Shown here piece after piece: positions 25,470-54,219 of a stretch of 64,000 nucleotides of DNA. This stretch comes from a phage. Position 1 is the first letter of the stretch. Every line of letters starts with the position of its first letter. The position numbers were made by a program, and so were the translations under genes. The notes beneath the pieces are model-generated. The model worked only from the letters and a program-made list of their open reading frames with translations, made no database searches and had not been told where the DNA came from. The stretch lies in the NCBI GenBank assembly GCA_012813795.1, contig GCA_012813795.1_4087.1; one strand, given 5' to 3'.

Positions 25470-25554
25470 AATTAAAAATCCTCTTAATTATAGTGGGGAA
25501 CTATTCCCCACCTGATAGAAAGTATTATACGCCTTTAAACTTAGTTTGCAAGTA

Positions 25555-25788
25555 CTATTTTTTCAGTACTGGTAAACCTTTGATCTCACCTGGCTGTACT
25601 TCCTCAAAGGTCGCCGCCATCATACGGCTATCATCTTCCTTGCACTCTTCCATTGCATCACAAAAATGATTAATAACGTCCGGTGCAACGTCAACCACAT
25701 CAAACAAGCCAACCTCAGTGCAACGGCTTAAAGCGTTTAACAGGTCAGTCAGTGCAACGGATTGAGAAACAGTTAAGATAGTACTCAT
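25555..25788 (-). CDS. hypothetical small acidic protein
   Basis: 77-aa ORF. Confidence 0.5.
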   Translation of the reverse strand: MSTILTVSQSVALTDLLNALSRCTEVGLFDVVDVAPDVINHFCDAMEECKEDDSRMMAATFEEVQPGEIKGLPVLKK

Positions 25789-25882
25789 AAAATTAATCTC
25801 TTAATTATAGTGGGGAACTATTCCCCACCTGATAGAAAGTATTATACGCCTTTAAACTTAGTATGCAAGTACTTTTTAAAAC

Positions 25883-26245
25883 TTATTCGTAAATCTTGCC
25901 ACTGTCAGCCCATACCAGGAAACGCGGCATATTATCCCATGCATCTTGTTTCAAGTTTAAGCCGTGCAATACTTCTGTACTTTCCATCCCTGGTACTGGT
26001 TTACTATACACCGCAAACATTTCGCCCATGTACTGATACGCCATCGTTAAATCACTGGCGATCATCTTATGGATCATCGCATCAAGCATCACAGTAGCGG
26101 CGTATTGTTCACGCTTAAGCGGCAACATTGCAATCAATTCCCGATAAGCTGAAATATGAATCTTTACAGTCTCAGCCGGAAGATCTTTCATCTCTTCGCG
26201 AAAGTTAACCAGGTTAGCAATGATTTTAGTGATTTGAGTCGCCAT
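25883..26245 (-). CDS. hypothetical protein
   Basis: 120-aa ORF behind a promoter/stem-loop cassette at 26250-26340. Confidence 0.55.
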   Translation of the reverse strand: MATQITKIIANLVNFREEMKDLPAETVKIHISAYRELIAMLPLKREQYAATVMLDAMIHKMIASDLTMAYQYMGEMFAVYSKPVPGMESTEVLHGLNLKQDAWDNMPRFLVWADSGKIYE

Positions 26246-27030
26246 CGTTTTAATTCCTATTAAAGTGAGTTAGGAGCGTTTCCCCCGTCTCGATGTAAAA
26301 CATTATACGCCGTTAAACATAGTATGCAAATACTTTCTGCAAATACTTTTAAAATAGTTTTCTTTCTATATAGGAGTACTATCATTCAGTACTGAATCAA
26401 TCCAGGGAGTACAATTATTCAGTACTATACCCTCAAAACGTCCTCAGTCGCTTTCTAACGCATTAATACACCTAAGCTATACATTTGCACCACTCCCAAC
26501 AATCCAGGGCTTTACGGGCCGTTTAAACGCGTTAAATTATTTTCAATTATTTTGTTTTTAGCTATTGACTCAGTACAGAAAAAGCGTATAATTACTACAT
26601 AGACGCGAGAAAGCGGATACCCCAGGGGGTGCGGAACTACGCCCAAAATTCAGTAAATTTAAAAAGGATACACTCCCGCACCCTAGCAGGTCAAAGCACT
26701 TTCTCAGTACTGAATCATAGTACCATAGTACGCCCCATGATAGCAAGCAAATTAATTAAAACTTTTTGCATCCAGGGTATTGCTTTATTTTTCCAGTACT
26801 GTATAATAGTTCCATCAAGTCGAGAAAGACTCAAGCCCAACGGGTGCATAGTTACGCCCAAAATTCAGTACTAGATTATTTTTTAAAAATATTCATCCAG
26901 GCGGTTGACATTGCCCCCAGTTTATTAGATAATGATTCCAGATTCAGAAAAATCTAACTCCAGATACTGCGGGGAAACCATCCCCACGCGGTAGGGGAAC
27001 TAATGGAAAAAACAGTATAAAATTTTGATT

Positions 27031-27170
27031 TAGCCGTCTATACATCCAGACGTTTAGCCGTCCAAACGTCTAGCGGTACAGCCATCTAGCAGTACAGCCA
27101 TCTAGCCACCTAGAGGGATAGCCATCTTTACTTCCAGACTTCTGGAGGGCTAGACATCTCTACGTCCAAA
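27031..27170. repeat. iteron-like direct repeats (gtacagccatctagc x2 plus degenerate tagcc / acgtct / ccatct units)
   Basis: Direct 15-16-mers at 27074-27089 and 27090-27105 with several partial copies in a stretch lacking ORFs. Confidence 0.6.
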
Positions 27171-27734
27171 ATCCACACAGGGTTACTACGCCCAAAATCC
27201 GTCAGTACTATACCATAGATCTATCTTTGAGAAGGGAGTATTCAGTACTGCCATCATAGTCCTCACTATGTTACCCTAGGAGGATGAAGACTATCATGTA
27301 GTACTGAATACTTTTAAGGGGAATATCATCACATTGCGTGATGCATTATATATTAGATTAATATCAGTACTGCTACCATTCTGTTAATAACAGTACTGTT
27401 TATATTACGAAAAAAAGAGGTTGTCAAAGATGAACCACTACATAGGAGGATTCAATCTCTTCTGTACTGTCTCACGACAGGGGGAATAAGGCTCTGAATT
27501 GTTTGCGGCAATCCATCACTCTATGTAGAACATTATACAGTACTGAATCATAATGTCAATAACTTTCTTACATTTGCAGTACTAAAATCGTATCTTCTGT
27601 ATCTCTTCAAAACTCATTATATCCCAATAATCCTATATGTCCCAACGTGAATTCCAACTTTCGAAGATCCAACTTTTATTTCATAGGTACTCCAAAATTT
27701 TTACGATCCAGATTTACGATGGAGTACTAACCAA

Positions 27735-27850
27735 CTTTTTGCTGGAGCCTCAAGGGGTATTCGGAATTTTCCCCAATGGGTAATCGGGATTTTTGACGAA
27801 GGGTAAATTGAACTTTTTTGAATAGGTGATTGGGAGTTTTCAGTACTGGT
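27735..27850. repeat. four degenerate ~19-bp direct repeats (gggtaNtcgGaatttt type)
   Basis: gggtattcggaatttt, gggtaatcgggattttt, gggtaaattgaactttttt, ggtgattgggagtttt in tandem. Confidence 0.5.
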
Positions 27851-28270
27851 CATTCCGTGATTACTTTTGATTACATTTGACATGTTATGCAAAGTTGCAG
27901 TACGGTAAAAATATGTAAATTTTGGGCGACTTCATTTGCCTACTTAGTGGGATATCAGTACTGAATCATATAGGGGTAATCCTTCAGTACTGAATACTTT
28001 CCTGTACTCTAGTACACTCTATTACACTCTAGTACTCAATACTAATCACTACTAACCACTACAATGATTATAAATGATTACTTAAATGTTTATATATGAT
28101 TACTTATGACTACCTATGATTACGGGGTTTAGCCTGGGGAGAATCCTAGTGATCGCATTTGTCCAGGCTGAATTTTAACAATTCAGACGTCGAGCAGGCT
28201 GAATTTTAACATATGCAACATATGTTAAAGCCTGTATAATGCTTACACTACGGAGCTTCCCCTAGCTATA

Positions 28271-28513
28271 TTACTTCCTATATATAAGCATTAAGATATA
28301 GTAGTACTGATTGTACTGATTGTACTGATTGTACTGATTGTACTGATTGTACTGATTGTACTGTACATTCTCTTTAACAGGACAAGGGTCTATTGCTATA
28401 TTAGTACATCTATACAATTCATATCTATTAAAGGGTAGTTCTATGAGAGATTTAATCCATACTTGTTCATTCTCTTTGAGTTTACTTATATAGAAGTCTT
28501 TATGATTATCCAT
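28271..28513 (-). CDS. family-2 small protein with internal (QYN)6 repeat
   Basis: 80-aa ORF; C-terminus LMLIYRK matches the family-2 C-terminal signature. Confidence 0.55.
   Translation of the reverse strand: MDNHKDFYISKLKENEQVWIKSLIELPFNRYELYRCTNIAIDPCPVKENVQYNQYNQYNQYNQYNQYNQYYYILMLIYRK
28304..28363. repeat. 9-bp microsatellite (gtactgatt) x 6.7 inside a CDS
   Basis: Perfect tandem copies starting at 28304, 28313, 28322, 28331, 28340, 28349, partial at 28358; encodes (QYN)n in gene 28271..28513. Confidence 0.9.
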
Positions 28514-28706
28514 AGATATATATTAACAACATTAGGTTAGAGTATAGTGCTTTAGTGTCATCTTGTTCTAGAGCTTCAATTGAGTTCGTTGTAGCTTTCC
28601 TAAAGCACATTTTTGCGTATGCACTTTTTGGATTAACGGGGGCGGTGGCTTCGCACCAGATTCTTTCGGTGGTTGATAGTTTACTCATATAGTATTCTTT
28701 ATACAT
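28506..28706 (-). CDS. family-2 small protein
   Basis: 66 aa; MYKEYYMSKL ... LMLLIYIYG. Confidence 0.55.
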   Translation of the reverse strand: MYKEYYMSKLSTTERIWCEATAPVNPKSAYAKMCFRKATTNSIEALEQDDTKALYSNLMLLIYIYG

Positions 28707-28707
28707 A

Positions 28708-28896
28708 TTAGTACCTGAATATAAGTAGTATAATGTTATAGTACTGATTAGTACTGCTAAGATTCTCTATAGAGCGAATAACAGTTAGGGAGTAGTTATA
28801 CTTGGAGTATGCATTATCCAGTGGGACTTTATATTGAGCACTAAGTGATAGTTCTGTAGGGAGAGTACTTAAGTAGAATTCTTTATGGTTTTGCAT
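28708..28896 (-). CDS. family-2 small protein
   Basis: 62 aa; MQNHKEFY ... ILLIFRY; 1-nt gap to neighbour. Confidence 0.6.
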   Translation of the reverse strand: MQNHKEFYLSTLPTELSLSAQYKVPLDNAYSKYNYSLTVIRSIENLSSTNQYYNIILLIFRY

Positions 28897-28897
28897 A

Positions 28898-29086
28898 TTA
28901 GTACCTGAATGTTAGCATTGTTATGTAGTACAGCATATATGGATTGTCATCGTATATTAGGGTGTACTTAGTACATTGTTGGAACATTATTTTTGCATGA
29001 TCTTTTATGCCAATAGGTTTTGTTGGCACATGGTGTTGGAGATGCATTGGGAGATGATCTTTATAAAATTCTTTATAGTTGTTCAT
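28898..29086 (-). CDS. family-2 small protein
   Basis: 62 aa; MNNYKEFY ... MLTFRY. Confidence 0.6.
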   Translation of the reverse strand: MNNYKEFYKDHLPMHLQHHVPTKPIGIKDHAKIMFQQCTKYTLIYDDNPYMLYYITMLTFRY

Positions 29087-29087
29087 A

Positions 29088-29273
29088 TTAGTACTTATAT
29101 ATTAGTAAAAGGATGTGATACAGTACTCGATTATAGTCGTCAATATCTATCGAGGATTTAGTGCACTTAACGAAGTAGTCTTTTTCGTAGTCTTTTTCTA
29201 TACCCAATGGTTCTGTTGGTACAAGGTATTGTAGATGCATTGGGAGTTTATCTATGTAGTATTCTTTATACAT
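29088..29273 (-). CDS. family-2 small protein
   Basis: 61 aa; MYKEYYIDKLPMHLQ ... LLLIYKY. Confidence 0.6.
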   Translation of the reverse strand: MYKEYYIDKLPMHLQYLVPTEPLGIEKDYEKDYFVKCTKSSIDIDDYNRVLYHILLLIYKY

Positions 29274-29288
29274 ATTAGTCCTTAGTCC

Positions 29289-29489
29289 TTAGTACTGGAA
29301 CGCGAGATACAGGGTGTGGTACAGTTGTACTTGAGAATTGTTTTCATTAACTTCTTCATTAAGTACTTGTTCAGTACAATTGCGGAAGTAATCAGCTTCA
29401 TATATACAGTTAATGTCGCGAGGTTCATCATCTAATAGATTGCCTTGTAGAAACTTTGGTAGTTCTTTAATATAGAATTCTTTATACAT
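29289..29489 (-). CDS. family-2 small protein
   Basis: 66 aa; MYKEFYIKELP ... LYLAFQY. Confidence 0.6.
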   Translation of the reverse strand: MYKEFYIKELPKFLQGNLLDDEPRDINCIYEADYFRNCTEQVLNEEVNENNSQVQLYHTLYLAFQY

Positions 29490-29497
29490 ATTAGTCC

Positions 29498-29692
29498 TTA
29501 GTACACGAACGTGAGGTACAGGGTGTGGTATAGTGCTCGATGATAGCTATCATAATCTTGTATACATGCTTTAGTGCACATAATGAATCTTGCTTTATTA
29601 ATCTCTGTGTTTAAGTTTCTAGGATGTTCTAGGTGATCGATTATGTACTGTGGGAAAAATTTTAGGTATAGTTCTTTGTGTTCATTTTTCAT
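29498..29692 (-). CDS. family-2 small protein
   Basis: 64 aa; MKNEHKELY ... LYLTFVY. Confidence 0.6.
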   Translation of the reverse strand: MKNEHKELYLKFFPQYIIDHLEHPRNLNTEINKARFIMCTKACIQDYDSYHRALYHTLYLTFVY

Positions 29693-29693
29693 A

Positions 29694-29876
29694 TTAGTAC
29701 CTGTATATAAGTGTTAGTACATTGTACAGGTTATAGATATCATCTTCATTTATTGCAGATTCTGTTTGATATCGGTAGAATATAGTTTGGCTCTTATCTT
29801 TGAAATCTACAGGTTCGCGGGGAATAAGCTTTTGTAGATCAATACTAAGAAAACTTATGTAGTATTCTTTATACAT
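29694..29876 (-). CDS. family-2 small protein
   Basis: Trimmed to Met MYKEYYISFL at 29876; ends LTLIYRY. Confidence 0.55.
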   Translation of the reverse strand: MYKEYYISFLSIDLQKLIPREPVDFKDKSQTIFYRYQTESAINEDDIYNLYNVLTLIYRY

Positions 29877-30540
29877 AGTTTGTAATATACGTAATGAGGT
29901 GATGAATTTTCTTATTAGTACTGATAAGTTCATGTACATGTTTTGTTAGATTGTACGCGTTTTTGTACAGTACAGGGTTATCGATTACAGTACTGTACAT
30001 GAATAGTTCTTCTTCTGATAATTCTTTGCCTTGTAGTTCTTTGAGGAATTCTACAATTGATTTAGTTTCTTCTGTACGTTGTGCTTGCCAGAAGTGCATA
30101 TTCTCGTGTATTTCTTCTGCACCCATACTGTATATGCCACCCATTTGGAATTGTGCTGTATTGACATCGTGGGAGGTGTTACAATTCCCGAAGAAGTATG
30201 TATTCCCGAAGTATAGCATTAAAGTGCACGGGGTATTATCCAACTGCATATGGATGATGAAGGATGCGTTCTTTAGTACCTTCATGCTCGTATTAGTACT
30301 CAATACTTTTAAATCAGTATTATAGATATTCATATAATGAACAGCTATATTATTTTTCTTCATGTACAATTCAAGGTTCTTTGATACGTTAACTCCATTT
30401 GTACTGGTTTTTTTACTTTTCTTTAGGTTCTTTAGTACATTAGGATGATAAGTATATGCATTAGTGGTAGATTCAGCCTGGATTGATTGCAGGTACTTAA
30501 AGTGCTGTAGGTATCGTTTGCTTTGTGGATTAAGTTTCAT
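29869..30540 (-). CDS. hypothetical protein embedded in the family-2 array (SEEELFMYS motif)
   Basis: 223-aa ORF; internal SEEELFMYSTVIDNP resembles the EEE-FQ-SL motif family. Confidence 0.5.
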   Translation of the reverse strand: MKLNPQSKRYLQHFKYLQSIQAESTTNAYTYHPNVLKNLKKSKKTSTNGVNVSKNLELYMKKNNIAVHYMNIYNTDLKVLSTNTSMKVLKNASFIIHMQLDNTPCTLMLYFGNTYFFGNCNTSHDVNTAQFQMGGIYSMGAEEIHENMHFWQAQRTEETKSIVEFLKELQGKELSEEELFMYSTVIDNPVLYKNAYNLTKHVHELISTNKKIHHLITYITNYV

Positions 30541-30576
30541 TTGGTTTCCTTAAATTGCTTATACTGCTTATACTGT

Positions 30577-30756
30577 TTATACTGTTACAAGCGAGATTAT
30601 TTCTCTGTATGGGTTATTTTTTGTCAGGACGTGATGAATGCAGCTATTGAGATTAATAGTTTTAGTACTTTTTGTTCCCAGGTTGTAGTACTTCACGAAG
30701 GTGTCGTACATGAAACGATCCTTAGTACTGAGATTATCGGTGTAGTACTCTAGCAT
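30577..30756 (-). CDS. family-2 small protein (59 aa, below the ORF-track threshold)
   Basis: Hand-translated MLEYYTDNLSTKDRFMYDTFVKYYNLG... Confidence 0.4.
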   Translation of the reverse strand: MLEYYTDNLSTKDRFMYDTFVKYYNLGTKSTKTINLNSCIHHVLTKNNPYREIISLVTV

Positions 30757-30766
30757 AGTTTATTCC

Positions 30767-30946
30767 TTATATAGAGATAAGTTTCAGTACTTCATTATAT
30801 GTGAACATTTCGTCCTGTGCCAATTTAGTACAATTCAGGAGTAATTTTCTTTGTTTTCTTTGCGAACTACAATGATAGCTCATTGAGAAGTAATTGAAGC
30901 CGTATCTATCTTCTGGGTAAATTACGCTTAGGTAGTATTCTAGCAT
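30767..30946 (-). CDS. family-2 small protein (59 aa, below the ORF-track threshold)
   Basis: Hand-translated MLEYYLSVIYPEDRYGFNYFSMSYHCSS... Confidence 0.4.
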   Translation of the reverse strand: MLEYYLSVIYPEDRYGFNYFSMSYHCSSQRKQRKLLLNCTKLAQDEMFTYNEVLKLISI

Positions 30947-30954
30947 TGTATTCT

Positions 30955-31140
30955 CTACATTTCAATAAGTTTAAGTACTGCTCTGTACGTGTACTTAGTT
31001 GTTAGTGTTTCTTTTATAGCAGTACAGAAGTAATGTTGTTTGTCTCTAATACTGCCGCGTTTGTAGTACCATACATGGGAGTTGTGGCTGTACTTGTCTC
31101 TGTCGGATAGTTTTTGGTAATAGTAGCTTTTATGATTCAT
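30955..31140 (-). CDS. family-2 small protein
   Basis: 61 aa; MNHKSYYYQKL ... LKLIEM. Confidence 0.55.
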   Translation of the reverse strand: MNHKSYYYQKLSDRDKYSHNSHVWYYKRGSIRDKQHYFCTAIKETLTTKYTYRAVLKLIEM

Positions 31141-31349
31141 TGTAATGTAATTAGCCTTACTATATTAAAGTACTCGGTCCCTGTTGCACCTTGTAGAATA
31201 TTACGCACGACATGTTTGTGGTGCTGGATGATTGCTGAAGGTGCGGTTCTTTTAAGTTTTTTAAAAGTACTGAATTCTTGTTTAAGGATGAACTGTATAT
31301 CTTTAGGGAGAATATCTATGTAGTACTGATGAATGTTCATAGTTTTCAT
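31137..31349 (-). CDS. family-2 small protein
   Basis: 70 aa; MKTMNIHQYYIDILP ... VRLITLQ. Confidence 0.55.
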   Translation of the reverse strand: MKTMNIHQYYIDILPKDIQFILKQEFSTFKKLKRTAPSAIIQHHKHVVRNILQGATGTEYFNIVRLITLQ

Positions 31350-31359
31350 ATAGCACCTT

Positions 31360-31551
31360 TTAGAACTTAAAGATGAGGTACATGATAGATAGGTACTTAG
31401 TTTCAGTAAACTGTTGTTCTATTGCATAACGTGTCTCCAACCTGAAATCGTAATTATAAAAGGGACTATTCTTTCTCATAGGTTCTTGAGGGAATGAGTC
31501 CCTGTATTGTTCGTGTAGTTTACTACAGTAGAAATCTTTATGATTATTCAT
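31360..31551 (-). CDS. family-2 small protein
   Basis: 63 aa; MNNHKDFY ... MYLIFKF. Confidence 0.6.
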   Translation of the reverse strand: MNNHKDFYCSKLHEQYRDSFPQEPMRKNSPFYNYDFRLETRYAIEQQFTETKYLSIMYLIFKF

Positions 31552-31753
31552 AGAAGTATATTAGTCCGATTAAACTTGAGTACTGCATATTTTTGTTATT
31601 GCATTCAATAGCTTCTAGAGTACTACGTATACAATTATTAAAGCAATTCCTGGTGTTGGGTGTGTCTATACTTACAGGTGGTACACTCCTTAGAAACATT
31701 TGTTCTTCGTTGCTGAGGTATTTGGTGTAGAATTCTTTATGTTCAGTTTTCAT
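31544..31753 (-). CDS. family-2 small protein
   Basis: 69 aa; MKTEHKEFY ... IGLIYFYE. Confidence 0.6.
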   Translation of the reverse strand: MKTEHKEFYTKYLSNEEQMFLRSVPPVSIDTPNTRNCFNNCIRSTLEAIECNNKNMQYSSLIGLIYFYE

Positions 31754-31754
31754 A

Positions 31755-31955
31755 TTAGTACTCCAATAGTAGTGTTAAGATGAAATAGTACTGCATACTT
31801 TCGTTACCTTCTATTGCATTCCAGATGAGGTTATTCCTGTTTGAGTTCAGGAGTCCTGGTATGCGTTTAGCATTTTTCAGTACTGTTTTTTGGTTCTTCA
31901 TTGCATCTTGTAGGCCAGGGTGCAATGCATTGATGTAGTACGGGTTAATGTTCAT
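31755..31955 (-). CDS. family-2 small protein
   Basis: 66 aa; MNINPYYINAL ... LTLLLEY. Confidence 0.55.
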   Translation of the reverse strand: MNINPYYINALHPGLQDAMKNQKTVLKNAKRIPGLLNSNRNNLIWNAIEGNESMQYYFILTLLLEY

Positions 31956-32179
31956 ATAGCCACTAGTACTAAGATATTTAAAAATTGTTTACGGGTATCC
32001 CCTAATAGTGTATTGTGTACAATGCTCACAGTAAGGGTATTCAGTGCACTACCAAGCATAAGGTTACACCCAGTGCTCTTATGATTTTTTAGTTCAATTA
32101 GCCACGATTGGTCAGAGAGAACCTTTGCGTACTCTAGTTCATTTAGTTCATTGATGTAGTACTTTAGAGCATATGGCAT
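31952..32179 (-). CDS. family-2 small protein; first gene of the array
   Basis: 75 aa; MPYALKYYINEL ... LVLVAI. Confidence 0.55.
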   Translation of the reverse strand: MPYALKYYINELNELEYAKVLSDQSWLIELKNHKSTGCNLMLGSALNTLTVSIVHNTLLGDTRKQFLNILVLVAI

Positions 32180-32281
32180 GTACGATTCTCCTTAGATTTC
32201 TCATATAGTACATCAGTACTGAAAGGATGTCAAGGGTTTTCTTTTTTGATTAAATATACTATAATGAATAAAGGAGGAAAT

Positions 32282-33439
32282 ATGTTACCTTTTGTTAGAA
32301 TGTTTGAGTACGGGAATGTAGCACCTATACAGCCAAAAATTATCCAAATGGAGTGTTTAAATGGTGGAGTTTATTTACTATACGATAATGGTGAATTATA
32401 TTATCGTGGACGAAATAGCAATGGACTAGCAGGGGATGGGACAAACACATCAAAGAGTAGTTCATGGATTTTGTCTAATACTAATGTTGCAATGCTAAGT
32501 AAAGGTGTGAGTAATTATGCTGTTGTTAGGAAAAAAGATAATACATTTTGGATGACAGGATCTTATAATTTATTTGATGTATCTGGGTGGACTAAGTATA
32601 GATGGAATGATGTAACCAGTAATTTTAGTGAAGTTAGTTCTAATTTAATTTGTGTATATTGTAATGGTGGTGGTGTGTTAACACTTCGCAGTGATGGAAC
32701 GTTGTATGCTTTCGGAACTAGTACAAGTGGTCAACTTGGCTTTGGAAGTGCAACGACAATCAACACATTTACTAAAGTGGCTGAATCAGTATCCACGAAT
32801 CCAGATAACGTTATTGCCGTTTTAGGTGGTTGTTATTATATAGATGAAAATAATAGGTTGTTTGCAACTGGTGTTAACACAAACGGACAATTGGGTATTG
32901 GTAGCACGGTCAATGCCCTTTCATTTACGTTGGTGAATACAGGGACAACTTATCCAGTGGTTAAGTCTATTATGGCTAATGCAAATGGTGCAAATATATT
33001 GGCCTATAAATCGGACGATTCTGCATATGTAACAGCGGCGAGTGGATATTTGTCGTATATAGGTACGGGTCAAACTTCTGGTATTGGGACTATATTTTCA
33101 AATTATGCTGCATTGAATAACCCAGACAACTTTAATATATTGAAGTTAAGTACATCTCTCGGTAATACAAATGCAATGCTTGTAGTAACCGACAAAGGTG
33201 TATATGCAACTGGTATGAATAATTACTACCAACTCGGAACTGACAACTCAACAAACCAGACTTCATATGTCAAAGTTGTTGGATTACCAGATGATGCTGA
33301 CACAACAACTATAAGATTTCTTGGTGGTACAGCAGAAGGAAGTGCATGTGTCTATCGTGATAAATTATATGTTTCTGGTGTTCTGGGGCAATGGGGGGCA
33401 GGCTACCCAAAATTCACTGAATTGGAAATTCCGTATTAA
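32282..33439 (+). CDS. RCC1-like beta-propeller repeat protein (cassette 1)
   Basis: Start at ATG 32282 (MLPFVRMFEYGN) 5 nt after AAAGGAGG; repeated G.N..GQLG motifs (GVNTNGQLGIGS, GMNNYYQLGTDN). Confidence 0.7.
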   Translation: MLPFVRMFEYGNVAPIQPKIIQMECLNGGVYLLYDNGELYYRGRNSNGLAGDGTNTSKSSSWILSNTNVAMLSKGVSNYAVVRKKDNTFWMTGSYNLFDVSGWTKYRWNDVTSNFSEVSSNLICVYCNGGGVLTLRSDGTLYAFGTSTSGQLGFGSATTINTFTKVAESVSTNPDNVIAVLGGCYYIDENNRLFATGVNTNGQLGIGSTVNALSFTLVNTGTTYPVVKSIMANANGANILAYKSDDSAYVTAASGYLSYIGTGQTSGIGTIFSNYAALNNPDNFNILKLSTSLGNTNAMLVVTDKGVYATGMNNYYQLGTDNSTNQTSYVKVVGLPDDADTTTIRFLGGTAEGSACVYRDKLYVSGVLGQWGAGYPKFTELEIPY

Positions 33440-33445
33440 TATCAT

Positions 33446-33476
33446 GCCAGTACTTGATACTGGCTTTTTCTTTTTG
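33446..33476 (+). terminator. intrinsic terminator (GCCAGTA-cttga-TACTGGC plus TTTTTCTTTTT)
   Basis: 7-bp perfect stem followed by a T-run; near-identical copies follow most cassettes. Confidence 0.7.
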
Positions 33477-33510
33477 GATTAAATATGATATAATGAATAA
33501 AGGAGGAAAT

Positions 33511-34404
33511 ATGTTACCTTTTGTTAGAATGTTTGAGTACGGGAATGATGTACTACCTGTCATAAATGGTGGTGTACGAACACAATTTACTACATCACCA
33601 GTACCTTCAGCACGAAATAACTTTGGTTATACGTATGATGCGGAAAGTAATATTGCTTATATATTTGGTGGTATACAGAATGCGGTGCAGACAGATAATC
33701 AGTTATGGGGTTTTAATTTAACTACTAGAACGTGGTCACAATTAGCCAATGCACCTGTATCTACATTTGGTAGTGCGTTATGTGCTTATCAGGGAAAAAT
33801 ATATTTGTTTGGTGGTTCAGGTAATGGTAGTAATAATTTTTATGTATATAATATAAGTACAAATACATGGATTCTGAACACTAACAGTATTGGGAAGCCT
33901 AGTCAACTCGCGTATAGTAAGATGATTACTGCTGGGGATAAGATATATTTGTGGGGTTCGCCTACTAATAATTCGTTATACAGTTATACTCCAAGTACTA
34001 ATACATGGTCATCATTAGGTACAAGTGATGGAACAAATAACAATGGAGGTGGTGATATGTGTACGGATGGTACTTACATATATATTACTGGTCAAGGTAC
34101 TAGTACTGCACAAAAATATCATATACAGAGTGCGGTGTGGTCTAACATAGCACCAGTGGGTGGTACTAACCCTAGTAAAATATGTTACAGTACATATGAT
34201 AAAAATATATATGCAGTGTCGTATGGTGCATTAAATTTATTGAGATACGATGCAGAAGAAGACATATGGATTCCCTTAGCGGTTAATACTACTTTGAGTA
34301 GTAGTACTGGTGCGTTATTTGGTTCTAAGAATAGTGCTGAGATATTTTATGTACTTGGTTTTGACAATGGCACTCGTGTTAATACGCAGTATGTTTTTAA
34401 ATAA
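33511..34404 (+). CDS. Kelch-like beta-propeller repeat protein (cassette 2)
   Basis: Same N-terminus MLPFVRMFEYGN; body shows Kelch-type pattern (IYIFGG ... TRTWS, KIYLFGG ... TNTW) rather than GQLG repeats. Confidence 0.6.
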   Translation: MLPFVRMFEYGNDVLPVINGGVRTQFTTSPVPSARNNFGYTYDAESNIAYIFGGIQNAVQTDNQLWGFNLTTRTWSQLANAPVSTFGSALCAYQGKIYLFGGSGNGSNNFYVYNISTNTWILNTNSIGKPSQLAYSKMITAGDKIYLWGSPTNNSLYSYTPSTNTWSSLGTSDGTNNNGGGDMCTDGTYIYITGQGTSTAQKYHIQSAVWSNIAPVGGTNPSKICYSTYDKNIYAVSYGALNLLRYDAEEDIWIPLAVNTTLSSSTGALFGSKNSAEIFYVLGFDNGTRVNTQYVFK

Positions 34405-34416
34405 TATGGAGGAATT

Positions 34417-35559
34417 ATGTTACCTTTTGTAAGAATGTTAGAGTACGGGAATATTGCACCAGAACCAAAACCTCTATTTAAAAATAGATTACAATGCTCG
34501 GCAGATGCCAAATTTTATTTACACACCAATGGTAATCTATATTGGTTTGGTTCTTCATCATATGGTCAAGGTGGTAATGGTTCATTGAACTCTTCAACCG
34601 CATGGACTCTCGTCAATACAAATGTTGTACGATATTGGGGTGGTGTTCAAGGAACAATTGCGATAAAGAAAGATGGTACTATTTGGTACACTGGTACAAG
34701 TTCTGTTATTCCAGTAATTGCATCAAACACTAACGGTGTTTGGGTTGATGTGACATCGCACTTTGCTGATTTCGGTGTCAGTGCTGATGATATTGATAGT
34801 ATTGTTATATCTGCGTGTATGCGTGTATTTTTGAAAAATGGAAAGTGGTTCTTCTGTGGTGCTGGGAGTGGTGGTGTATTCGGAAATGGTTCATCGGCAA
34901 GCGTTTCACAATTCACGTACAGTACTATAGAAAATGTTCGAAGTGCTGGTTGTGCAATTCGAAGTACTGCATTAGTACTCAATGATGGTACATATTGGTA
35001 TGCAGGTAATACGTTTATATCGGGAACGTCTGCACAAAACGTGCTAAGATTTACACAAGAAACTTCCATCAGCACTGCAATTAAAGCAGTCAATACAATT
35101 GAAACTTCCTATATATTTCTTAGTGATGGAACAGTTAAAGTTGCATCTTCTAACGAACGTGGTCAAGCCGGTACTGGGAATACAACACCAGCCCCTATGA
35201 GTACATTAATTCCAAATTTAGCATTCCAAGGTGAAATAGAGTCAGTGGGTGATCTTGGTACAAACCTTACAGGACCATCCTGTATAATTAAAAATGATAA
35301 TAAGTTATTTTTATGTGGTCTTAATTCAAATGGACAATGTGGTGTTGGTTCAACCTCGACAAATATAACAACATTCACTGAAATGATTCTTACTGCATTA
35401 GAAGGTCGTAATGTTAGTAGTTTTTGTAGGGGATATAACTATACGATGTTAGTTGACGATGCTGATAATTTATATACATGCGGTGTACCAAATCTTGATG
35501 GGGTGTCTACTACAAATGTACCGACAAGGGTTCCTGATTCACTTCTACCGTGGAAATAA
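34417..35559 (+). CDS. RCC1-like beta-propeller repeat protein (cassette 3)
   Basis: MLPFVRMLEYGN; GLNSNGQCGVGS; no terminator between cassettes 2 and 3; close paralogue of cassette 4. Confidence 0.7.
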   Translation: MLPFVRMLEYGNIAPEPKPLFKNRLQCSADAKFYLHTNGNLYWFGSSSYGQGGNGSLNSSTAWTLVNTNVVRYWGGVQGTIAIKKDGTIWYTGTSSVIPVIASNTNGVWVDVTSHFADFGVSADDIDSIVISACMRVFLKNGKWFFCGAGSGGVFGNGSSASVSQFTYSTIENVRSAGCAIRSTALVLNDGTYWYAGNTFISGTSAQNVLRFTQETSISTAIKAVNTIETSYIFLSDGTVKVASSNERGQAGTGNTTPAPMSTLIPNLAFQGEIESVGDLGTNLTGPSCIIKNDNKLFLCGLNSNGQCGVGSTSTNITTFTEMILTALEGRNVSSFCRGYNYTMLVDDADNLYTCGVPNLDGVSTTNVPTRVPDSLLPWK

Positions 35560-35566
35560 TATAATA

Positions 35567-35597
35567 GCCAGTATCAAGTACTGGCTTTTCTTTTTTG
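35567..35597 (+). terminator. intrinsic terminator (GCCAGTA-tcaa-gTACTGGC plus T-run)
   Basis: Inverted repeat plus ttttcttttttg. Confidence 0.65.
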
Positions 35598-35631
35598 TAT
35601 TAAATATAGTATAATGAATAAAGGAGGAATT

Positions 35632-36774
35632 ATGTTACCTTTTGCAAGAATGTTGGATTATGGAAATAAAGCACCAGAACCAAAACCTCTATTTAAAAAT
35701 AGATTACAAGCAAATTATAATACTCGTTTTTATTTGCATGTTAATGGTGACTTGTACTGGTATGGTTCATCTTCATTTGGACAAGGTGGTAATGGTTCAT
35801 TACAATCATCCACCGTATGGACCCGTGTGAATAATAATATTGAACGTTACTGGGGTGGTGTTCTTGGTTCCATTGCCATTAAGAATGATGGAACTATTTG
35901 GTTCACAGGTGCTAGTATAGTAATGCCACAAATCGGAACAAATACAAATGGGGTTTGGATTGATGTAACCCAGTACTTCACTGATTTTGGTGTCAGTGCT
36001 GATGATATTGATGGTATTGCTGTTGGGCAGAATTTGCGTGTATTTTTAAAAAATGGAAAATGGTTCTACTGTGGTGCTGGCGAGGGTGGTGTATTTGGTA
36101 ACGCGTCAACAGCTAATGTCACATCGTTCAGATACAGCACTATAGAAAATGTTAAAAGTTATGGCTGTTCTTTGCTCAGTACTGGGTTAGTACTTGATGA
36201 TGGCTCCTATTGGTATGCAGGAAATACTGTTGCTCCTGGTAGTACAAAAACATCAAATATATTAAGTTTTACAAAAGACAATACGATCACCAATGCTATA
36301 CAAGCTGTAAATACATACCGTACTTCATATATATTTCTTAATGATGGTTCAGTGAAGGTTGCTTCACCAAATGCATATGGTCAAGCTGGTGTAGGTACAG
36401 TATCAGCAGTACCAATGAGTACATTAATTCCCAATTTATCATTCCAAGGTGAAATAGAGTTGGTGGGTGGTTTATCCAACAACGAAGGGAATGGATGTGT
36501 TGTTAAAAATAATAATAAGTTATATACTTGTGGTCGAAATACCTATGGTCTATGTGGTGTTAATCAAACATCCGAAAATATACTAACTTTCACCGAAATG
36601 GTTCTTGATGCATTAGAAGGAAGACGAATTTCAGGCTTCGTAATTGATAATTTCTATTCAATGATAATTGATGAAAATAACAATTTGTATATGAGTGGTT
36701 TGGCTGAACTTGGAAATGTTCCAGCCGTTAGAGTACCAACCAGAGTTCCTGATTCACTTCTACCGTGGAAATAA
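35632..36774 (+). CDS. RCC1-like beta-propeller repeat protein (cassette 4)
   Basis: MLPFARMLDYGN; same C-terminus PTRVPDSLLPWK as cassette 3. Confidence 0.7.
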   Translation: MLPFARMLDYGNKAPEPKPLFKNRLQANYNTRFYLHVNGDLYWYGSSSFGQGGNGSLQSSTVWTRVNNNIERYWGGVLGSIAIKNDGTIWFTGASIVMPQIGTNTNGVWIDVTQYFTDFGVSADDIDGIAVGQNLRVFLKNGKWFYCGAGEGGVFGNASTANVTSFRYSTIENVKSYGCSLLSTGLVLDDGSYWYAGNTVAPGSTKTSNILSFTKDNTITNAIQAVNTYRTSYIFLNDGSVKVASPNAYGQAGVGTVSAVPMSTLIPNLSFQGEIELVGGLSNNEGNGCVVKNNNKLYTCGRNTYGLCGVNQTSENILTFTEMVLDALEGRRISGFVIDNFYSMIIDENNNLYMSGLAELGNVPAVRVPTRVPDSLLPWK

Positions 36775-36780
36775 TATAAT

Positions 36781-36811
36781 GCCAGTACTTGATACTGGCT
36801 TTTTCTTATTT
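36781..36811 (+). terminator. intrinsic terminator copy
   Basis: gccagtacttgatactggc plus T-run. Confidence 0.65.
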
Positions 36812-36846
36812 GGATTAAATAAAGTATAATGAATAAAGGAGGAAAT

Positions 36847-50189: not shown

Positions 50190-50229
50190 TGAAATAATTA
50201 TAACAAAAAGGGCCGACCGAAGTCAACCC
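50190..50229 (-). terminator. fused terminator-promoter module (minus RNA hairpin GGGUUGAC-UUCG-GUCGGCCC, U-run, then -10 TATAAT)
   Basis: Hairpin 50210-50229 just 3' of gene 50236..52155; TTGACT in the 5' arm sits 17 nt before gTTATAAT, upstream of ATG 50168. Confidence 0.6.
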
Positions 50230-50235
50230 TTTTGT

Positions 50236-52155
50236 TTAGTTTTGTTTCACCCCACCCCATTTTTCATAGATGGCAATAATTTTATCTATGTTGTTTGGTG
50301 TAGTTGTTTCAGTATACCCGTCTGGCATTTCTTGTTTAGTTAAAACACCTTTACCAAATCGTTTCTTACATTCTTTTTCAGCCTGTTTACAATCACCATC
50401 AGTATTAAAGAAGAATGTATGTGATGATACAACTTCAAATTTACAGCTTTTATTTTGGCTTTTATGTCGAGTACCTTTATTTTTTTCTATACCATATTTT
50501 ATTGCAATAGGGATGTCACCATCTTTAATTATATTAATATAAGCATATTGTTGGGTATATCCAACTTCATGTGAGTGTCCACTTTTACGGTCAACATGTG
50601 CATACGGTGTTGTAAAAAATTCACCATATTCGGGATGAATTATACACACATTAGTTGCTGTGTTAATATATTCTACTTTAGAATAATCATACAAATCACC
50701 ATGTACTTCTTTGGCTTTTTTAATGAAATCTTCTTTATTTTTAAATCGTAATCTACAGAATGGGTGTTGTCCCCCTTTTAAGTGGTGGTAAGGGGATGTG
50801 TGATATTCTCCATATTCTGGGTGGATAATACATACATGGTCATCAATACCAATATATTCTACTTTCGAATAATCATACAAATCACCATGTACTTCTTTGG
50901 CTTTTTTAATGAAATCTTCAGTGCACATTCGGGCTAAATCACTCCTTGATTTTACCCCACGAATTGGACAACCTTGCCCTGATAAATGAGATGATGGTGT
51001 TTGCCAAAATTCACCATACATAGGATCGATGATACATATTTTAGTATTACTGTTAATATATTCTACTTTCGAATAATCATACAAATCACCATGTACTTCT
51101 TTGGCTTTTTTAATGAAATCCAAAGTCGTTCCAGTCCTTTTGTTTTTTAATAATACTTTCGCACGTTTTGGATTATTGGCACCGTTTAAATGATTATTTG
51201 GTGTTTGCCAAAATTCACCATACATAGGATCGATGATACATATTTTAGTATTATTGTTAATATATTCTACTTTAGAATAATCATACAAATCACCATGTAC
51301 TTCTTTGGCTTTTTTAATGAAATCTTTTAATGTTAATTTTACATTTTTAGTTACAATATGCAAATTACATCCAGTTCTAGATAATAAATGATTAACAGGT
51401 GTAATTTCAAATTCACCATATTCATTATGAATCAATGTTACTTTTGTTCGGTAATCAACATAATTTATTTTTGAATAATCATATGTGTTTTTGAATTTCT
51501 CTTTAGATCTTTGTATAAATTCTTCTCTAGAAAGTTTTTGTTTTTCAGTTGTCTTTATTCTACCAGCTTTTGGATGTCCTTGTCCCTTCACATGACATTC
51601 TGGTGTTTGCTTAAATTCGCCAAATTCTGGATGAATTATTAAGACTTTAGTTTTGTAATCAACATAATTTATTTTTGAATAATCATATATGTTTCCATGT
51701 GTTTTTAATGCACGTTCTAAAAACATTTCCTTTGAAATTTTATTTTTTATATTTTTTTCTTTTAATTTATCCAAACCATGTTTTGGATGACCTACTCCGT
51801 TAAAATGATCTCCAACCAAAATCCAATGTTCACCATATACAGGATGAATGATACAAACTTTATTTTTGGAATTTACATAGTTTACTTTTGAATAATCATA
51901 CAAATCACCATGTACTTCACTAAATTTTTTCAATACACTTTCTTGTGTTAATTTTTTATTCTTCTTTCTGGATGGATTGTTTGAACCGTTCAAATGGTTA
52001 CCTGGAAGCATCCAAAATTCTTCATTACGTTCAATATCAATTATGCATATTTTTTGGGCGTGGTTTGTATATTCAACTTTAGAATAATCATACATGTCTC
52101 CATGTATTTTTTTAAATTCTGTAATAATACTTTCGGTTGACCACTTTTTACGCAT
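50236..52155 (-). CDS. repeat protein: eight tandem ~60-aa modules (HGDLYDYSKVEY...C.IIHPEYGEF...P..HL.G)
   Basis: 639 aa; modules 5-8 nearly identical even at nucleotide level; function not recognised with confidence. Confidence 0.65.
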   Translation of the reverse strand: MRKKWSTESIITEFKKIHGDMYDYSKVEYTNHAQKICIIDIERNEEFWMLPGNHLNGSNNPSRKKNKKLTQESVLKKFSEVHGDLYDYSKVNYVNSKNKVCIIHPVYGEHWILVGDHFNGVGHPKHGLDKLKEKNIKNKISKEMFLERALKTHGNIYDYSKINYVDYKTKVLIIHPEFGEFKQTPECHVKGQGHPKAGRIKTTEKQKLSREEFIQRSKEKFKNTYDYSKINYVDYRTKVTLIHNEYGEFEITPVNHLLSRTGCNLHIVTKNVKLTLKDFIKKAKEVHGDLYDYSKVEYINNNTKICIIDPMYGEFWQTPNNHLNGANNPKRAKVLLKNKRTGTTLDFIKKAKEVHGDLYDYSKVEYINSNTKICIIDPMYGEFWQTPSSHLSGQGCPIRGVKSRSDLARMCTEDFIKKAKEVHGDLYDYSKVEYIGIDDHVCIIHPEYGEYHTSPYHHLKGGQHPFCRLRFKNKEDFIKKAKEVHGDLYDYSKVEYINTATNVCIIHPEYGEFFTTPYAHVDRKSGHSHEVGYTQQYAYINIIKDGDIPIAIKYGIEKNKGTRHKSQNKSCKFEVVSSHTFFFNTDGDCKQAEKECKKRFGKGVLTKQEMPDGYTETTTPNNIDKIIAIYEKWGGVKQN

Positions 52156-52384
52156 TACTTAAAACTCCTTTCCAGTACTGAACCCGTCCAGCACCATTAA
52201 TCTTAGCCTGAATCTTATCTTTTTCGACAAGACCTTCTTTGTAATCTATGGACGTATTATCGCACTGAATTACATCTAAGTCAAGTACTTCTTGTGTACT
52301 TAATGAAGTATTGTCTGCAATTTGTTGTAAAGTAATTATATCAGTACCGAAGAATTCTGCTAAACGTATAAAAGATAGTTTCAT
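52148..52384 (-). CDS. hypothetical small protein
   Basis: 78-aa ORF behind a terminator-promoter module. Confidence 0.5.
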   Translation of the reverse strand: MKLSFIRLAEFFGTDIITLQQIADNTSLSTQEVLDLDVIQCDNTSIDYKEGLVEKDKIQAKINGAGRVQYWKGVLSNA

Positions 52385-52404
52385 GTATTACCTCTTGAGT
52401 TGAT

Positions 52405-52444: not shown

Positions 52445-52449
52445 TTATA

Positions 52450-53111: not shown

Positions 53112-53134
53112 GTATTCATCCTCTCGTTTCGATG

Positions 53135-53171: not shown

Positions 53172-53185
53172 CAAATTTAACGAAT

Positions 53186-54209: not shown

Positions 54210-54219
54210 ATTTTTTTAA

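What the first reader, a model, noticed from the sequence alone, without database searches (positions are those of the whole stretch)
28271..32179. Second tandem array of about 17 small paralogues (M..HKEFY ... LLIYRY)
Seventeen or more consecutive 59-80-aa minus-strand ORFs begin with M.(N/T).(H/Y)KEFY...L(P/S) and end with a hydrophobic L(L/I).L(I/T)(F/Y)(R/K)Y tail. Spacers are 1-10 nt, and two members fall below the 60-aa ORF threshold. One 223-aa unrelated gene is embedded. The hydrophobic C-terminus suggests membrane anchoring or an interaction peptide.
Basis: seen in the sequence. Interest (0 to 1): 0.75.

Follow-up and report, generated by a model that had tools for sequence, protein, structure and literature searches.

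The report
Sixteen-copy small-protein family beside phage terminal repeat
A jumbo E. coli phage carries one tightly packed operon of 16 diverged copies of a tiny helical protein with no relatives outside this phage group; it is probably switched on early to act on the host, but its function is untested.

Summary
Window 28271-32179 (minus strand) holds 16 paralogous ORFs of 59-80 aa, not 17, plus one unrelated 223-aa ORF. In leave-one-out HMM tests every member outranks all 768 other ORF segments of the window.

- **Source:** an Asteriusvirus jumbo coliphage (121Q/PBECO4 group).
- **Distribution:** only this lineage (35 representatives among 1.84 billion proteins). No Pfam or NCBIfam hit, and no structural match outside the family.
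- **Fold:** AlphaFold gives a confident (pLDDT 92) four-helix mini-domain. The "hydrophobic tail" is its core helix. No member has a transmembrane segment.
- **Sequence pattern:** about 14 core positions are conserved; the rest is hypervariable.
- **Selection and copy number:** pooled dN/dS is about 0.3. Copy number is 14-23 in nine phages, always with the 223-aa gene embedded.
- **Expression signals:** one conserved sigma70-like promoter, a strong Shine-Dalgarno site and stop/start coupling. Codon usage is host-like, unlike the neighbouring virion genes.
- **Position:** the array ends 327 nt before the ~21-kb direct terminal repeat.

My best reading (about 0.4) is an early operon of diversified small proteins that bind host targets, for takeover or anti-defence. 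This is inferred, not shown.

In passing, the palindrome AGTACT is about 12-fold over-represented across the window.

The parts
32205..32233 (-). Sigma70-like promoter of the array: TTGACA, 17 nt, TACTAT, with a CAGTACTG box in the spacer
   Evidence: Found by the promoter scan. The -35 hexamer, the CAGTACTG box and the -10 hexamer are conserved in 8 Asteriusvirus genomes. The same AGTACTG-box architecture occurs in about 30 near-consensus promoters of the terminal-repeat region.
32188..32193 (-). Shine-Dalgarno AAGGAG of the first gene, m1
   Evidence: Sequence upstream of the m1 ATG. Conserved as TAAGGAG in 8 phages.
31952..32179 (-). m1, 75 aa, divergent family member with an insertion before helix 3
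   Evidence: Leave-one-out E 0.0095, the best non-training hit. Its orthologue is first in the array in the eight closer relatives; JNE01 has a weak m1-like first ORF (E 0.0035).
31755..31955 (-). m2, 66 aa; overlaps m1 by 4 nt (ATGA)
   Evidence: Leave-one-out E 1e-5; BLASTP to m5 at 2e-8.
31544..31753 (-). m3, 69 aa
   Evidence: Leave-one-out E 7e-13; PHROG 11711 at 1e-13.
31360..31551 (-). m4, 63 aa; overlaps m3 by 8 nt
   Evidence: Leave-one-out E 3e-9.
31137..31349 (-). m5, 70 aa; absent from 121Q, ELP-22 and UE-S1
   Evidence: Leave-one-out E 8e-4 and BLASTP to m2 at 2e-8; presence and absence among phages.
30955..31140 (-). m6, 61 aa, in the subgroup m6-m8
   Evidence: Leave-one-out E 1e-7.
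30767..30946 (-). m7, 59 aa; no orthologue at 60% identity or more in 7 compared phages
   Evidence: Leave-one-out E 0.012; BLASTP to m8 at 3e-5 and to m6 at 5e-4; orthologue search.
30577..30756 (-). m8, 59 aa
   Evidence: Leave-one-out E 3e-7.
29869..30540 (-). Embedded unrelated 223-aa gene (PHROG 29152, function unknown), at the same position in every array examined
   Evidence: PHROG hit at 5e-139. Found in the same 36 phage records as the array. Embedded in all 9 arrays mapped with the family HMM; the annotation of fEgEco12 shows the same layout. dN/dS is 0.36-0.47. Its HExxH motif is not conserved. The AlphaFold model is unusable, pLDDT 43.
29694..29876 (-). m9, 60 aa; overlaps the 223-aa gene stop by 8 nt
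   Evidence: Leave-one-out E 3e-10. The start at MYKEYY matches the family alignment.
29498..29692 (-). m10, 64 aa
   Evidence: Leave-one-out E 0.002; BLASTP to m11 and m12 at 6e-8 and 8e-9.
29289..29489 (-). m11, 66 aa
   Evidence: Leave-one-out E 3e-12.
29088..29273 (-). m12, 61 aa, the most central member and the one modelled
   Evidence: Leave-one-out E 6e-18. AlphaFold pLDDT 92, helices at 3-7, 12-15, 28-43 and 47-60. PHROG 11711 at 4e-27.
28898..29086 (-). m13, 62 aa
   Evidence: Leave-one-out E 6e-10.
28708..28896 (-). m14, 62 aa
   Evidence: Leave-one-out E 8e-11.
28506..28706 (-). m15, 66 aa
   Evidence: Leave-one-out E 1e-14.
28271..28513 (-). m16, 80 aa, the last gene; carries a (QYN)6 insert in the loop between helices 3 and 4
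   Evidence: Leave-one-out E 5e-7. Its orthologue is last in the array in the eight closer relatives.
28304..28366 (.). 9-nt tandem repeat (GTACTGATT)n that encodes the (QYN)n insert of m16
   Evidence: Repeat family D2. Orthologues carry one to three QYN units against six here.
27944..28270 (-). 327-nt non-coding stretch from the m16 stop to the first base of the direct terminal repeat (27944, reading the minus strand)
   Evidence: The repeat boundaries of fEgEco12 and vB_Ec-M-J both align to ...CACTA|AGTAGGCA. The stretch folds unusually well as RNA, z = -4.3.

Best explanation
The array is a single early operon of an Asteriusvirus jumbo phage. It encodes 16 diverged copies of a small, soluble, four-helix protein, with a conserved 223-aa partner gene embedded among them. 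The copies share a hydrophobic, tyrosine-rich core and differ at almost every surface position. I infer that they are stoichiometric binders of host proteins, for host takeover or for countering variable host defences. Keeping many different copies, and gaining or losing copies by unequal recombination, would widen the range of targets or host strains covered.

Shown here: the paralogy, the coding status, the predicted fold, the absence of a membrane segment, the operon signals, the copy-number turnover and the position next to the terminal repeat.

Inferred: early timing, from promoter type and codon usage. Binding to host targets and any anti-defence role, from analogy only.
For: Real, constrained genes:
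- All 146 copies in 8 phages are intact ORFs.
- Pooled dN/dS is 0.27-0.36, close to the 0.23 of 5 control genes and the 0.36-0.47 of the embedded gene.
- AlphaFold pLDDT is 92.

A scaffold with a variable surface:
- About 14 core positions are conserved (Y6 invariant). Most other positions exceed 3 bits of entropy, and indels fall in the two loops.
- Isoelectric points run from 4.3 to 10.

Early, host-dependent expression:
- A conserved TTGACA-17-TACTAT promoter carries the same AGTACTG box as about 30 near-consensus sigma70 promoters in the terminal-repeat region.
- The divergent virion-protein genes have a different upstream motif without a -35 element.
- Codon usage is host-like: TAC/TAT is 79/36 and third-position C is 24.5%. 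In the adjacent virion genes the figures are 57/202 and 9%.

Operon:
- There is a strong Shine-Dalgarno site on m1. Junctions are TAATATG or overlap, with AGG or AAGGA about 10 nt upstream of the next start.

Turnover with retention:
- Nine phages carry 14-23 copies. There are 30 orthologue groups, duplications and reordering, yet the framework and the embedded gene persist even in the divergent JNE01.

Not a virion component:
- None of gp540c-548c is among the 62 virion proteins of phAPEC6, while the neighbouring RCC1-like proteins are (PMC7247149).

Position:
- The array ends 327 nt before the ~21-kb terminal repeat. That repeat is packed with promoters and small genes, as in the host-takeover regions of T5 and SPO1 (the comparison is from my own knowledge).
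Against: - There are no expression, interaction or phenotype data for any member.
- Nothing matches a known anti-defence or takeover protein by sequence or fold.
- dN/dS among retained orthologues is not above that of neighbouring genes. Values of 1 or more for m4 and m12 rest on few substitutions. An arms race is therefore suggested only by turnover and paralogue divergence.
- The -10 hexamer is only 4 of 6, and the promoter is a consensus match, not a mapped start site.
- Small proteins can escape detection in virion mass spectrometry.
Confidence: 0.4

Rival explanations
1. The small proteins are assembly chaperones or adaptors for the adjacent, divergently transcribed array of RCC1-like virion (fibre or whisker) proteins, roughly one small protein per fibre paralogue.
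For: - The two multi-copy arrays are back to back and share an intergenic region of about 100 nt.
- Both vary between phages.
- The RCC1-like proteins are virion components in phAPEC6.
Against: - The promoter classes differ: a sigma70 -35 element plus AGTACTG box for the array, against a motif without a -35 element behind a hairpin for each RCC1-like gene.
- Codon usage is opposite in the two arrays.
- The counts do not match: 16 small genes against about 11-12 large ones in the window.
- No small member was detected in virions.
Confidence: 0.12
2. The paralogues assemble with each other, and perhaps with the 223-aa protein, into a hetero-oligomeric intracellular structure. They do not each bind a separate host target.
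For: - The last helix is almost wholly hydrophobic in the core subgroup, more than a 60-residue monomer needs to bury.
- Translational coupling would give near-equal amounts of each protein.
- The 223-aa gene is always embedded.
Against: - Copy number and membership vary freely (14-23), which is unexpected for a defined complex.
- The AlphaFold monomer is confident on its own.
- No oligomer prediction could be run.
Confidence: 0.12
3. The proteins bind nucleic acid and regulate the phage's own genes, for example by acting on the AGTACT-box promoters or on the many AGTACT sites.
For: - AGTACT and CAGTACTG are highly over-represented and sit in the early promoters, including the array's own promoter.
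- The proteins are rich in tyrosine (10.9% of residues).
Against: - Isoelectric points range from 4.3 to 10, and several members are acidic.
- No helix-turn-helix or other DNA-binding fold was found.
- A hypervariable surface is unexpected for proteins that recognise one conserved motif.
Confidence: 0.08
4. The array is largely neutral filler: tandem duplicates that expanded the genome after the capsid enlarged (the idea of Hua et al. 2017), with no specific function per copy.
For: - Hua et al. report large tandem arrays in 121Q and phage G and propose duplication as a route to genome expansion (PMC5646251).
- Copy number is variable.
Against: - dN/dS is about 0.3 and all 146 ORFs are intact.
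- Paralogues are old: median identity is 23%.
- The architecture survives in JNE01, whose embedded gene is only 39% identical.
- The promoter and Shine-Dalgarno site are conserved.
Confidence: 0.08
5. The proteins are tail-anchored or membrane-associated through their hydrophobic C-terminus.
For: The C-terminus is hydrophobic in the core subgroup, e.g. LYHILLLIYKY.
Against: - No 19-residue window reaches a transmembrane-like hydrophobicity; the maximum is 1.2.
- The stretch is 8-11 residues long.
- It is modelled as the core helix of a soluble bundle.
- It is amphipathic in the m5-m8 members.
Confidence: 0.03

Closest known systems
PHROG 11711 and the 'hypothetical protein' genes of Asteriusvirus genomes (e.g. 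121Q gp249-265, phAPEC6 gp540c-548c, G17_00054-69)
   Same: These are the same genes in related phages, with the same order, strand and embedded 220-223-aa gene. PHROG 11711 matches m3, m12, m15 and m16 at 1e-12 to 4e-27.
   Different: The PHROG has no function attached and covers only the core subgroup; m1, m2, m5, m6 and m8 do not match it. Several members are not annotated at all in phAPEC6, Ec-M-J and slurp01.
Terminal multigene families of large eukaryotic DNA viruses (African swine fever virus MGF110/360/505; poxvirus terminal host-range families and gene 'accordions'). From my own knowledge.
   Same: Tandem paralogues sit next to the terminal repeat. Copy number differs between isolates. 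Paralogues are strongly diverged around a conserved scaffold.
   Different: There is no sequence or fold relationship. The proteins here are far smaller (about 60 aa). A role in host range or immune evasion is untested. This is an analogy of organisation, not membership.
Host-takeover modules in long terminal repeats of phages T5 (pre-early genes) and SPO1 (gp37-60). From my own knowledge.
   Same: Small genes of unknown fold lie behind strong host-type promoters at or in the terminal redundancy.
   Different: Those modules hold unrelated genes, each largely unique, and lie inside the repeat. Here one paralogous family forms a single operon just outside the repeat.
Small helical early phage inhibitors of host proteins (e.g. 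T4 AsiA; anti-CRISPR and other anti-defence proteins). From my own knowledge.
   Same: Small size, all-helical prediction, likely early expression and variable presence among close relatives.
[quoted passage not shown] PMC5646251, PMC7824862, PMC7247149.
   Same: The same evolutionary process: lineage-specific tandem duplication in a jumbo phage genome.
   Different: None of the papers I read describes this small family, its fold, its promoter or its position next to the terminal repeat.

Membership tests
PHROG 11711 (phage protein family, unknown function) | A significant match to the family HMM | tested here: met
   m3 1e-13, m12 4e-27, m15 4e-12 and m16 2e-12 match. m1, m2, m5, m6 and m8 have no hit at E 0.01 or better. 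Membership therefore holds for the core subgroup only.
Transmembrane or tail-anchored membrane proteins | A hydrophobic segment of about 18-20 residues or more (Kyte-Doolittle 19-residue mean of about 1.6 or more) | tested here: not met
   The maximum is 1.20 (m1) and 0.76 or less in the other 15. The C-terminal hydrophobic run is 8-11 residues.
Virion structural proteins | Detected in purified virions | tested here: not met
   None of phAPEC6 gp540c-548c is in the published 62-protein virion proteome, while the neighbours gp549 and gp551 are (PMC7247149 Table 1). Caveat: small proteins are easily missed by mass spectrometry.
Early, host-RNA-polymerase-dependent phage genes | A sigma70-type promoter upstream | tested here: met
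   TTGACA-17-TACTAT at 32233..32205, conserved in 8 phages and sharing the AGTACTG box of the promoters in the terminal-repeat region. This is a consensus match only; no transcription start has been mapped.
Early, host-RNA-polymerase-dependent phage genes | Transcripts appear in the first minutes of infection | not testable with these tools
   I found no transcriptome of an Asteriusvirus in the paper library.
Anti-defence or host-takeover proteins | Binds and inhibits a host protein, or its loss restricts the host range | not testable with these tools
   No similarity to any characterised protein. Experiments are needed.
Terminal multigene families (organisational class) | Tandem paralogues adjacent to a genome terminal repeat | tested here: met
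   The array ends 327 nt before the repeat boundary, mapped from fEgEco12 (termini confirmed experimentally, PMC13070987) and vB_Ec-M-J.
Terminal multigene families (organisational class) | Copy number differs between isolates | tested here: met
   16, 16, 17, 18, 20, 23, 22, 14 and 16 copies in nine phages.
Zincin metalloproteases (considered for the embedded 223-aa gene) | A conserved HExxH motif | tested here: not met
   HENMH in the window is HDNMH or HDNMY in most of the 21 homologues. Only the first H is invariant.
The small family itself (considered for the C-terminus of the 223-aa protein) | A significant profile-profile match | tested here: not met
   hhalign gives probability 0.4% and E 0.14, although the alignment spans the whole small domain against residues 165-220. 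The AlphaFold model of the 223-aa protein is too poor to compare folds.

The most novel reading that the evidence does not exclude
The array is a phage counterpart of the terminal multigene families of large eukaryotic DNA viruses. In this reading it is a heritable, recombining library of a new small-protein fold. Each copy would neutralise a different host factor or defence variant early in infection, and copy gain and loss would set host range. That would make it a new anti-defence or takeover superfamily with a built-in diversification mechanism.
Probability: 0.25. Interest if true: 0.75.

Novelty: new member of a known kind. Interest (0 to 1): 0.45.

Why it matters
More than 80% of the genes of these 350-kb coliphages have no known function, and several isolates are being proposed for therapy. 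This locus is a compact and experimentally tractable candidate for early phage-host interaction. It is a single operon behind a host-type promoter, encoding 14-23 diverged copies of one confidently modelled mini-domain that has no relatives elsewhere.

If the copies bind host or defence proteins, the array would provide a set of new small inhibitors. It would also be a natural example of how a phage keeps a diversified panel of binders by tandem duplication next to its terminal repeat. If they do not, the locus remains an ordinary lineage-specific expansion of unknown function.

Tried and rejected
- **Membrane anchor:** rejected on hydropathy and the structure model.
- **Known families:** Pfam, NCBIfam and PDB sequence searches gave nothing meaningful. 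The best were a designed repeat protein at E 0.016 and a weak cutinase hit for the 223-aa protein at E 0.042, below the cut-off.
- **Wider distribution:** a word-indexed search of 5.8 billion proteins and an exhaustive HMMER search of 1.84 billion representatives each returned 35 hits. All named hits are from Escherichia or Salmonella jumbo phages. One 523-aa hit (P0042) is a translated satellite repeat and is spurious.
- **223-aa gene as a metalloprotease:** rejected, because the HExxH motif is not conserved.
- **223-aa gene as a fused family member:** not supported. Its AlphaFold model has pLDDT 43, so no fold search was run on it.
- **Positive selection:** dN/dS of 1 or more for m4 and m12 in several comparisons rests on very few synonymous changes, so I make no claim.
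- **Junction conservation as a DNA element only:** partly true. The AGG-TAC-TAA-T-ATG junction doubles as a Shine-Dalgarno-like site. The protein-level core pattern and dN/dS show that coding constraint also applies.
- **Rfam and tRNA scans of the window:** no hits.
- **Two candidate small RNAs at 26598-26720 and 26813-26935:** folding is not convincing, z -2.1 and -0.5.
- **Literature:** no paper found describes this family, and no Asteriusvirus transcriptome was found.

Full report
**What is there.** Between 28271 and 32179 the minus strand carries 17 back-to-back ORFs. Sixteen of them (m1-m16, 59-80 aa) are paralogues. The ninth in transcription order (29869-30540, 223 aa) is unrelated. Gaps between genes are -8 to +15 nt, and +36 nt before the 223-aa gene. 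Five junctions are TAATATG and five are 4- or 8-nt overlaps. The coordinates, strand, sizes and the two 59-aa members are all correct.

**Is the similarity more than chance?** Yes. I built an HMM from 15 members at a time and searched it against all 784 ORF segments of the window. The left-out member was always the top non-training hit. E-values ran from 6e-18 to 1e-2, against 0.02 or worse for the best unrelated ORF. The weakest are m1, m7 and m10. m7 and m10 are joined to other members by BLASTP. m1 is supported mainly by the fixed first position of its orthologue in the eight closer relatives. BLASTP defines three subgroups: {m2, m5}, {m6, m7, m8} and {m3, m4, m9-m16}. Median pairwise identity is 23% and the maximum is 50%. 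No other member lies elsewhere in the window.

**Where the window comes from.** The DNA matches Asteriusvirus jumbo coliphages. A4 is 94% identical; G17, 121Q, PBECO4 and phAPEC6 are about 85%. The 223-aa protein is identical to one annotated on a 357,761-bp contig of an E. coli assembly. That fits the reports of lytic phage genomes in bacterial assemblies listed.

**The family is confined to this lineage.**
- A search of 5.8 billion proteins found 35 clusters.
- An exhaustive HMMER search of 1.84 billion representatives also found 35 hits, one of them a spurious repeat protein.
- Every named hit is from an Escherichia or Salmonella jumbo phage.
- The embedded 223-aa gene occurs in the same 36 phage records as the array.
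- There is no Pfam, NCBIfam or PDB sequence match.
- PHROG 11711, of unknown function, covers only the core subgroup.

Across 109 distinct sequences from eight phages, these positions are conserved: 5, 6 (invariant Tyr), 10, 34, 37, 38, 42, 51, 54, 55, 57, 58, 59 and 61. They are almost all hydrophobic or aromatic. Most other positions exceed 3 bits of entropy, and indels fall in the loops between helices 2-3 and 3-4. The C-terminal 'hydrophobic tail' is therefore the core helix of a small soluble domain with a hypervariable surface. It is not a membrane anchor. Tyrosine makes up 10.9% of residues, and isoelectric points run from 4.3 to 10.

**Are these real genes?**
- All 146 copies in eight phages are intact.
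- For window members with an orthologue at 60% identity or more, pooled dN/dS is 0.27-0.36.
- This compares with 0.23 for five unrelated genes against 121Q and 0.36-0.47 for the embedded gene.
- Values of 1 or more for m4 and m12 rest on very few synonymous changes, so I do not claim positive selection.

**Turnover.** Copy number is 16 (window), 16 (121Q), 17 (G17), 18 (phAPEC6), 20 (slurp01), 23 (ELP-22), 22 (vB_Ec-M-J), 14 (UE-S1) and 16 (JNE01). Clustering at 62% identity gives 30 orthologue groups. A fixed framework persists: the first, third, fourth and sixth types, the gene before the 223-aa ORF, and the last gene. Interior members are gained, lost, duplicated (two types occur twice in ELP-22) or reordered. 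Five window members are singletons. JNE01's embedded gene is only 39% identical, yet it keeps the layout: six copies, the 224-aa gene, then ten copies. The multi-copy, diversified state is therefore old and maintained. It is not a recent amplification. In m16 a 9-nt repeat (GTACTGATT) encodes (QYN)6, against one to three units in orthologues.

**Expression signals.**
- A sigma70-like promoter, TTGACA-17-TACTAT (32233..32205), lies about 25 nt upstream of the m1 start. Between them is the Shine-Dalgarno sequence AAGGAG.
- The -35 hexamer, a CAGTACTG box in the spacer, the -10 hexamer and the Shine-Dalgarno site are all conserved in eight phages.
- The same arrangement, TTGACA-N8/9-(Y)AGTACTG-TATAAT, recurs in about 30 near-consensus promoters on the minus strand between roughly 6.9 and 27.6 kb of the window. 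There nearly every small gene has its own promoter.
- The divergent RCC1-like genes, whose phAPEC6 products are virion proteins, are each preceded by a hairpin with a T-run and a different conserved motif that lacks a -35 element (AAATATAGTATAATGAATAAAGGAGG).
- Within the array, the conserved C-terminal Arg-Tyr-stop is AGG-TAC-TAA-T-ATG. This places AGG about 10 nt before the next start. Longer spacers carry AAGGA at the same distance. That indicates translational coupling.
- Codon usage sets the array apart. TAC/TAT is 79/36 and third-position C is 24.5%. The RCC1-like genes show 57/202 and 9%. The genes of the repeat region are intermediate, at 77/106 and 20.6%.

I read this as an early operon transcribed by host RNA polymerase. 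That is an inference from sequence only.

**Position in the genome.** vB_Ec-M-J is annotated with a 21,525-bp direct terminal repeat. fEgEco12 has a 20,993-bp repeat confirmed by PhageTerm and restriction digests, and Sharanji has one of 20,668 bp (PMC13070987 and PMC11895373). In vB_Ec-M-J and fEgEco12 the array ends about 275-300 nt before the right-hand repeat. Their boundaries align to the same sequence...CACTA|AGTAGGCA, which is position 27944 in the window, 327 nt after the m16 stop. This explains three things:
- the ORF-poor stretch 26246-28270, which is also unannotated in 121Q;
- the change of GC-skew sign near 28 kb without a change of gene strand;
- the promoter-dense zone of about 20.7 kb below it.

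**The embedded 223-aa gene.** It belongs to PHROG 29152, of unknown function. Its HENMH is not a conserved HExxH motif. Profile comparison with the small family is not significant, at E 0.14. Its AlphaFold model is unusable, at pLDDT 43. Its constant position suggests a functional link with the array, but nothing more can be said.

**Interpretation.** The best-supported account is an early operon of diversified small soluble proteins that act by binding other proteins, most plausibly host takeover or defence targets. Unequal recombination between copies would supply variation. I give this about 0.4. The rivals are:
- chaperones for the neighbouring fibre paralogues (0.12);
- a hetero-oligomeric assembly (0.12);
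- nucleic-acid-binding regulators (0.08);
- neutral genome filler (0.08);
- membrane anchoring (0.03).

In organisation, the closest analogues are the terminal multigene families of African swine fever virus and poxviruses, and the takeover modules in the terminal repeats of T5 and SPO1. Those comparisons rest on my own knowledge and are analogies, not homology. Published work notes tandem arrays in 121Q and phAPEC6 only in general terms (PMC5646251, PMC7247149). I found no description of this family.

**Verdict.** This is a real, well-defined, lineage-restricted multigene family with a confidently predicted fold that has no known relatives. It has clear operon and early-type signals and a notable position next to the terminal repeat. 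Its function is unknown. It is a new member of a known kind of feature, a tandem accessory gene family in a jumbo phage. It is of moderate interest as a candidate for anti-defence or takeover studies.

Noticed in passing
whole window 1-64000; densest in 1-28000 and in the array 28271-32179: The palindrome AGTACT occurs 252 times against 21.6 expected (12-fold). CAGTACTG occurs 52 times against 0.7 (75-fold), and GTAC 600 against 211. Inside coding regions AGTACT is still 3-5-fold above a synonymous-codon shuffle that keeps protein sequence and codon usage (z = 7-13 in four separate gene sets). The same excess is seen in vB_Ec-M-J, fEgEco12 and a distant part of 121Q. It resembles the highly iterated palindromes of cyanobacteria. 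I found no report of it for these phages, and its cause is unknown.
   Followed up: partly
window 27944 (boundary); 26246-28270 (ORF-poor stretch): The start of the ~21-kb direct terminal repeat maps to 27944, by alignment with two phages whose termini are determined. The surrounding 2 kb has no convincing ORF. It contains 10-nt tandem repeats ACTCTAGTAC at 28006-28045 and several copies of ATTCAGTACTGAAT. It folds unusually well as RNA, z = -4.3 for 27930-28275. The GC-skew sign flips here without a change of gene strand. It may hold packaging or end-formation signals.
   Followed up: partly
window about 6900-27600, minus strand: About 30 near-consensus sigma70 promoters share one architecture, TTGACA-N8/9-(Y)AGTACTG-TATAAT, roughly one per small gene. 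The promoter-dense zone spans about 20.7 kb, which matches the terminal repeat. It looks like an early host-takeover region.
   Followed up: partly
window 50197-60560, minus strand (50226, 52440, 53169, 56277, 60560): A second promoter class is a nearly identical 30-nt unit, TTGACTTCGGTCAGCC(C)TTTTTG(C/T)TATAAT, with an extended -10 TG. It is repeated five times upstream of minus-strand genes.
   Followed up: no
window 32246-46115, plus strand: About 11-12 tandem RCC1-like or kelch-like paralogues share the N-terminus MLPFVRM(F/L)EYGN. Most are preceded by a hairpin, GCCAGTACTTGATACTGGC plus a T-run, and by the motif AAATATAGTATAATGAATAAAGGAGG. Longest-ORF starts such as MNKGGN... run through the Shine-Dalgarno site and are probably miscalled. 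Orthologues in phAPEC6 are virion proteins.
   Followed up: partly
window 26586-26655 and 26801-26870, plus strand: Two 70-nt direct repeats (71% identical) each follow a -10 TATAAT on the plus strand, antisense to the general direction of transcription. They are possible small RNAs. Folding is not convincing (z -2.1 and -0.5) and there is no Rfam hit.
   Followed up: partly
window 25481-25580 and 25798-25897: A 100-nt intergenic unit is repeated at 89% identity. It contains the hairpin GTGGGGAACTATTCCCCAC followed by a promoter-like sequence. It is probably a terminator-plus-promoter cassette between small early genes.
   Followed up: no
locus L007 (UE-S1) 5623-5862: In phage UE-S1 the reading frame of an m6-type gene continues upstream into the C-terminal residues of an m5-type gene (...EYFNIVRLIT-MNHIRYYY...). 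This looks like the scar of a deletion or recombination between neighbouring paralogues.
   Followed up: no
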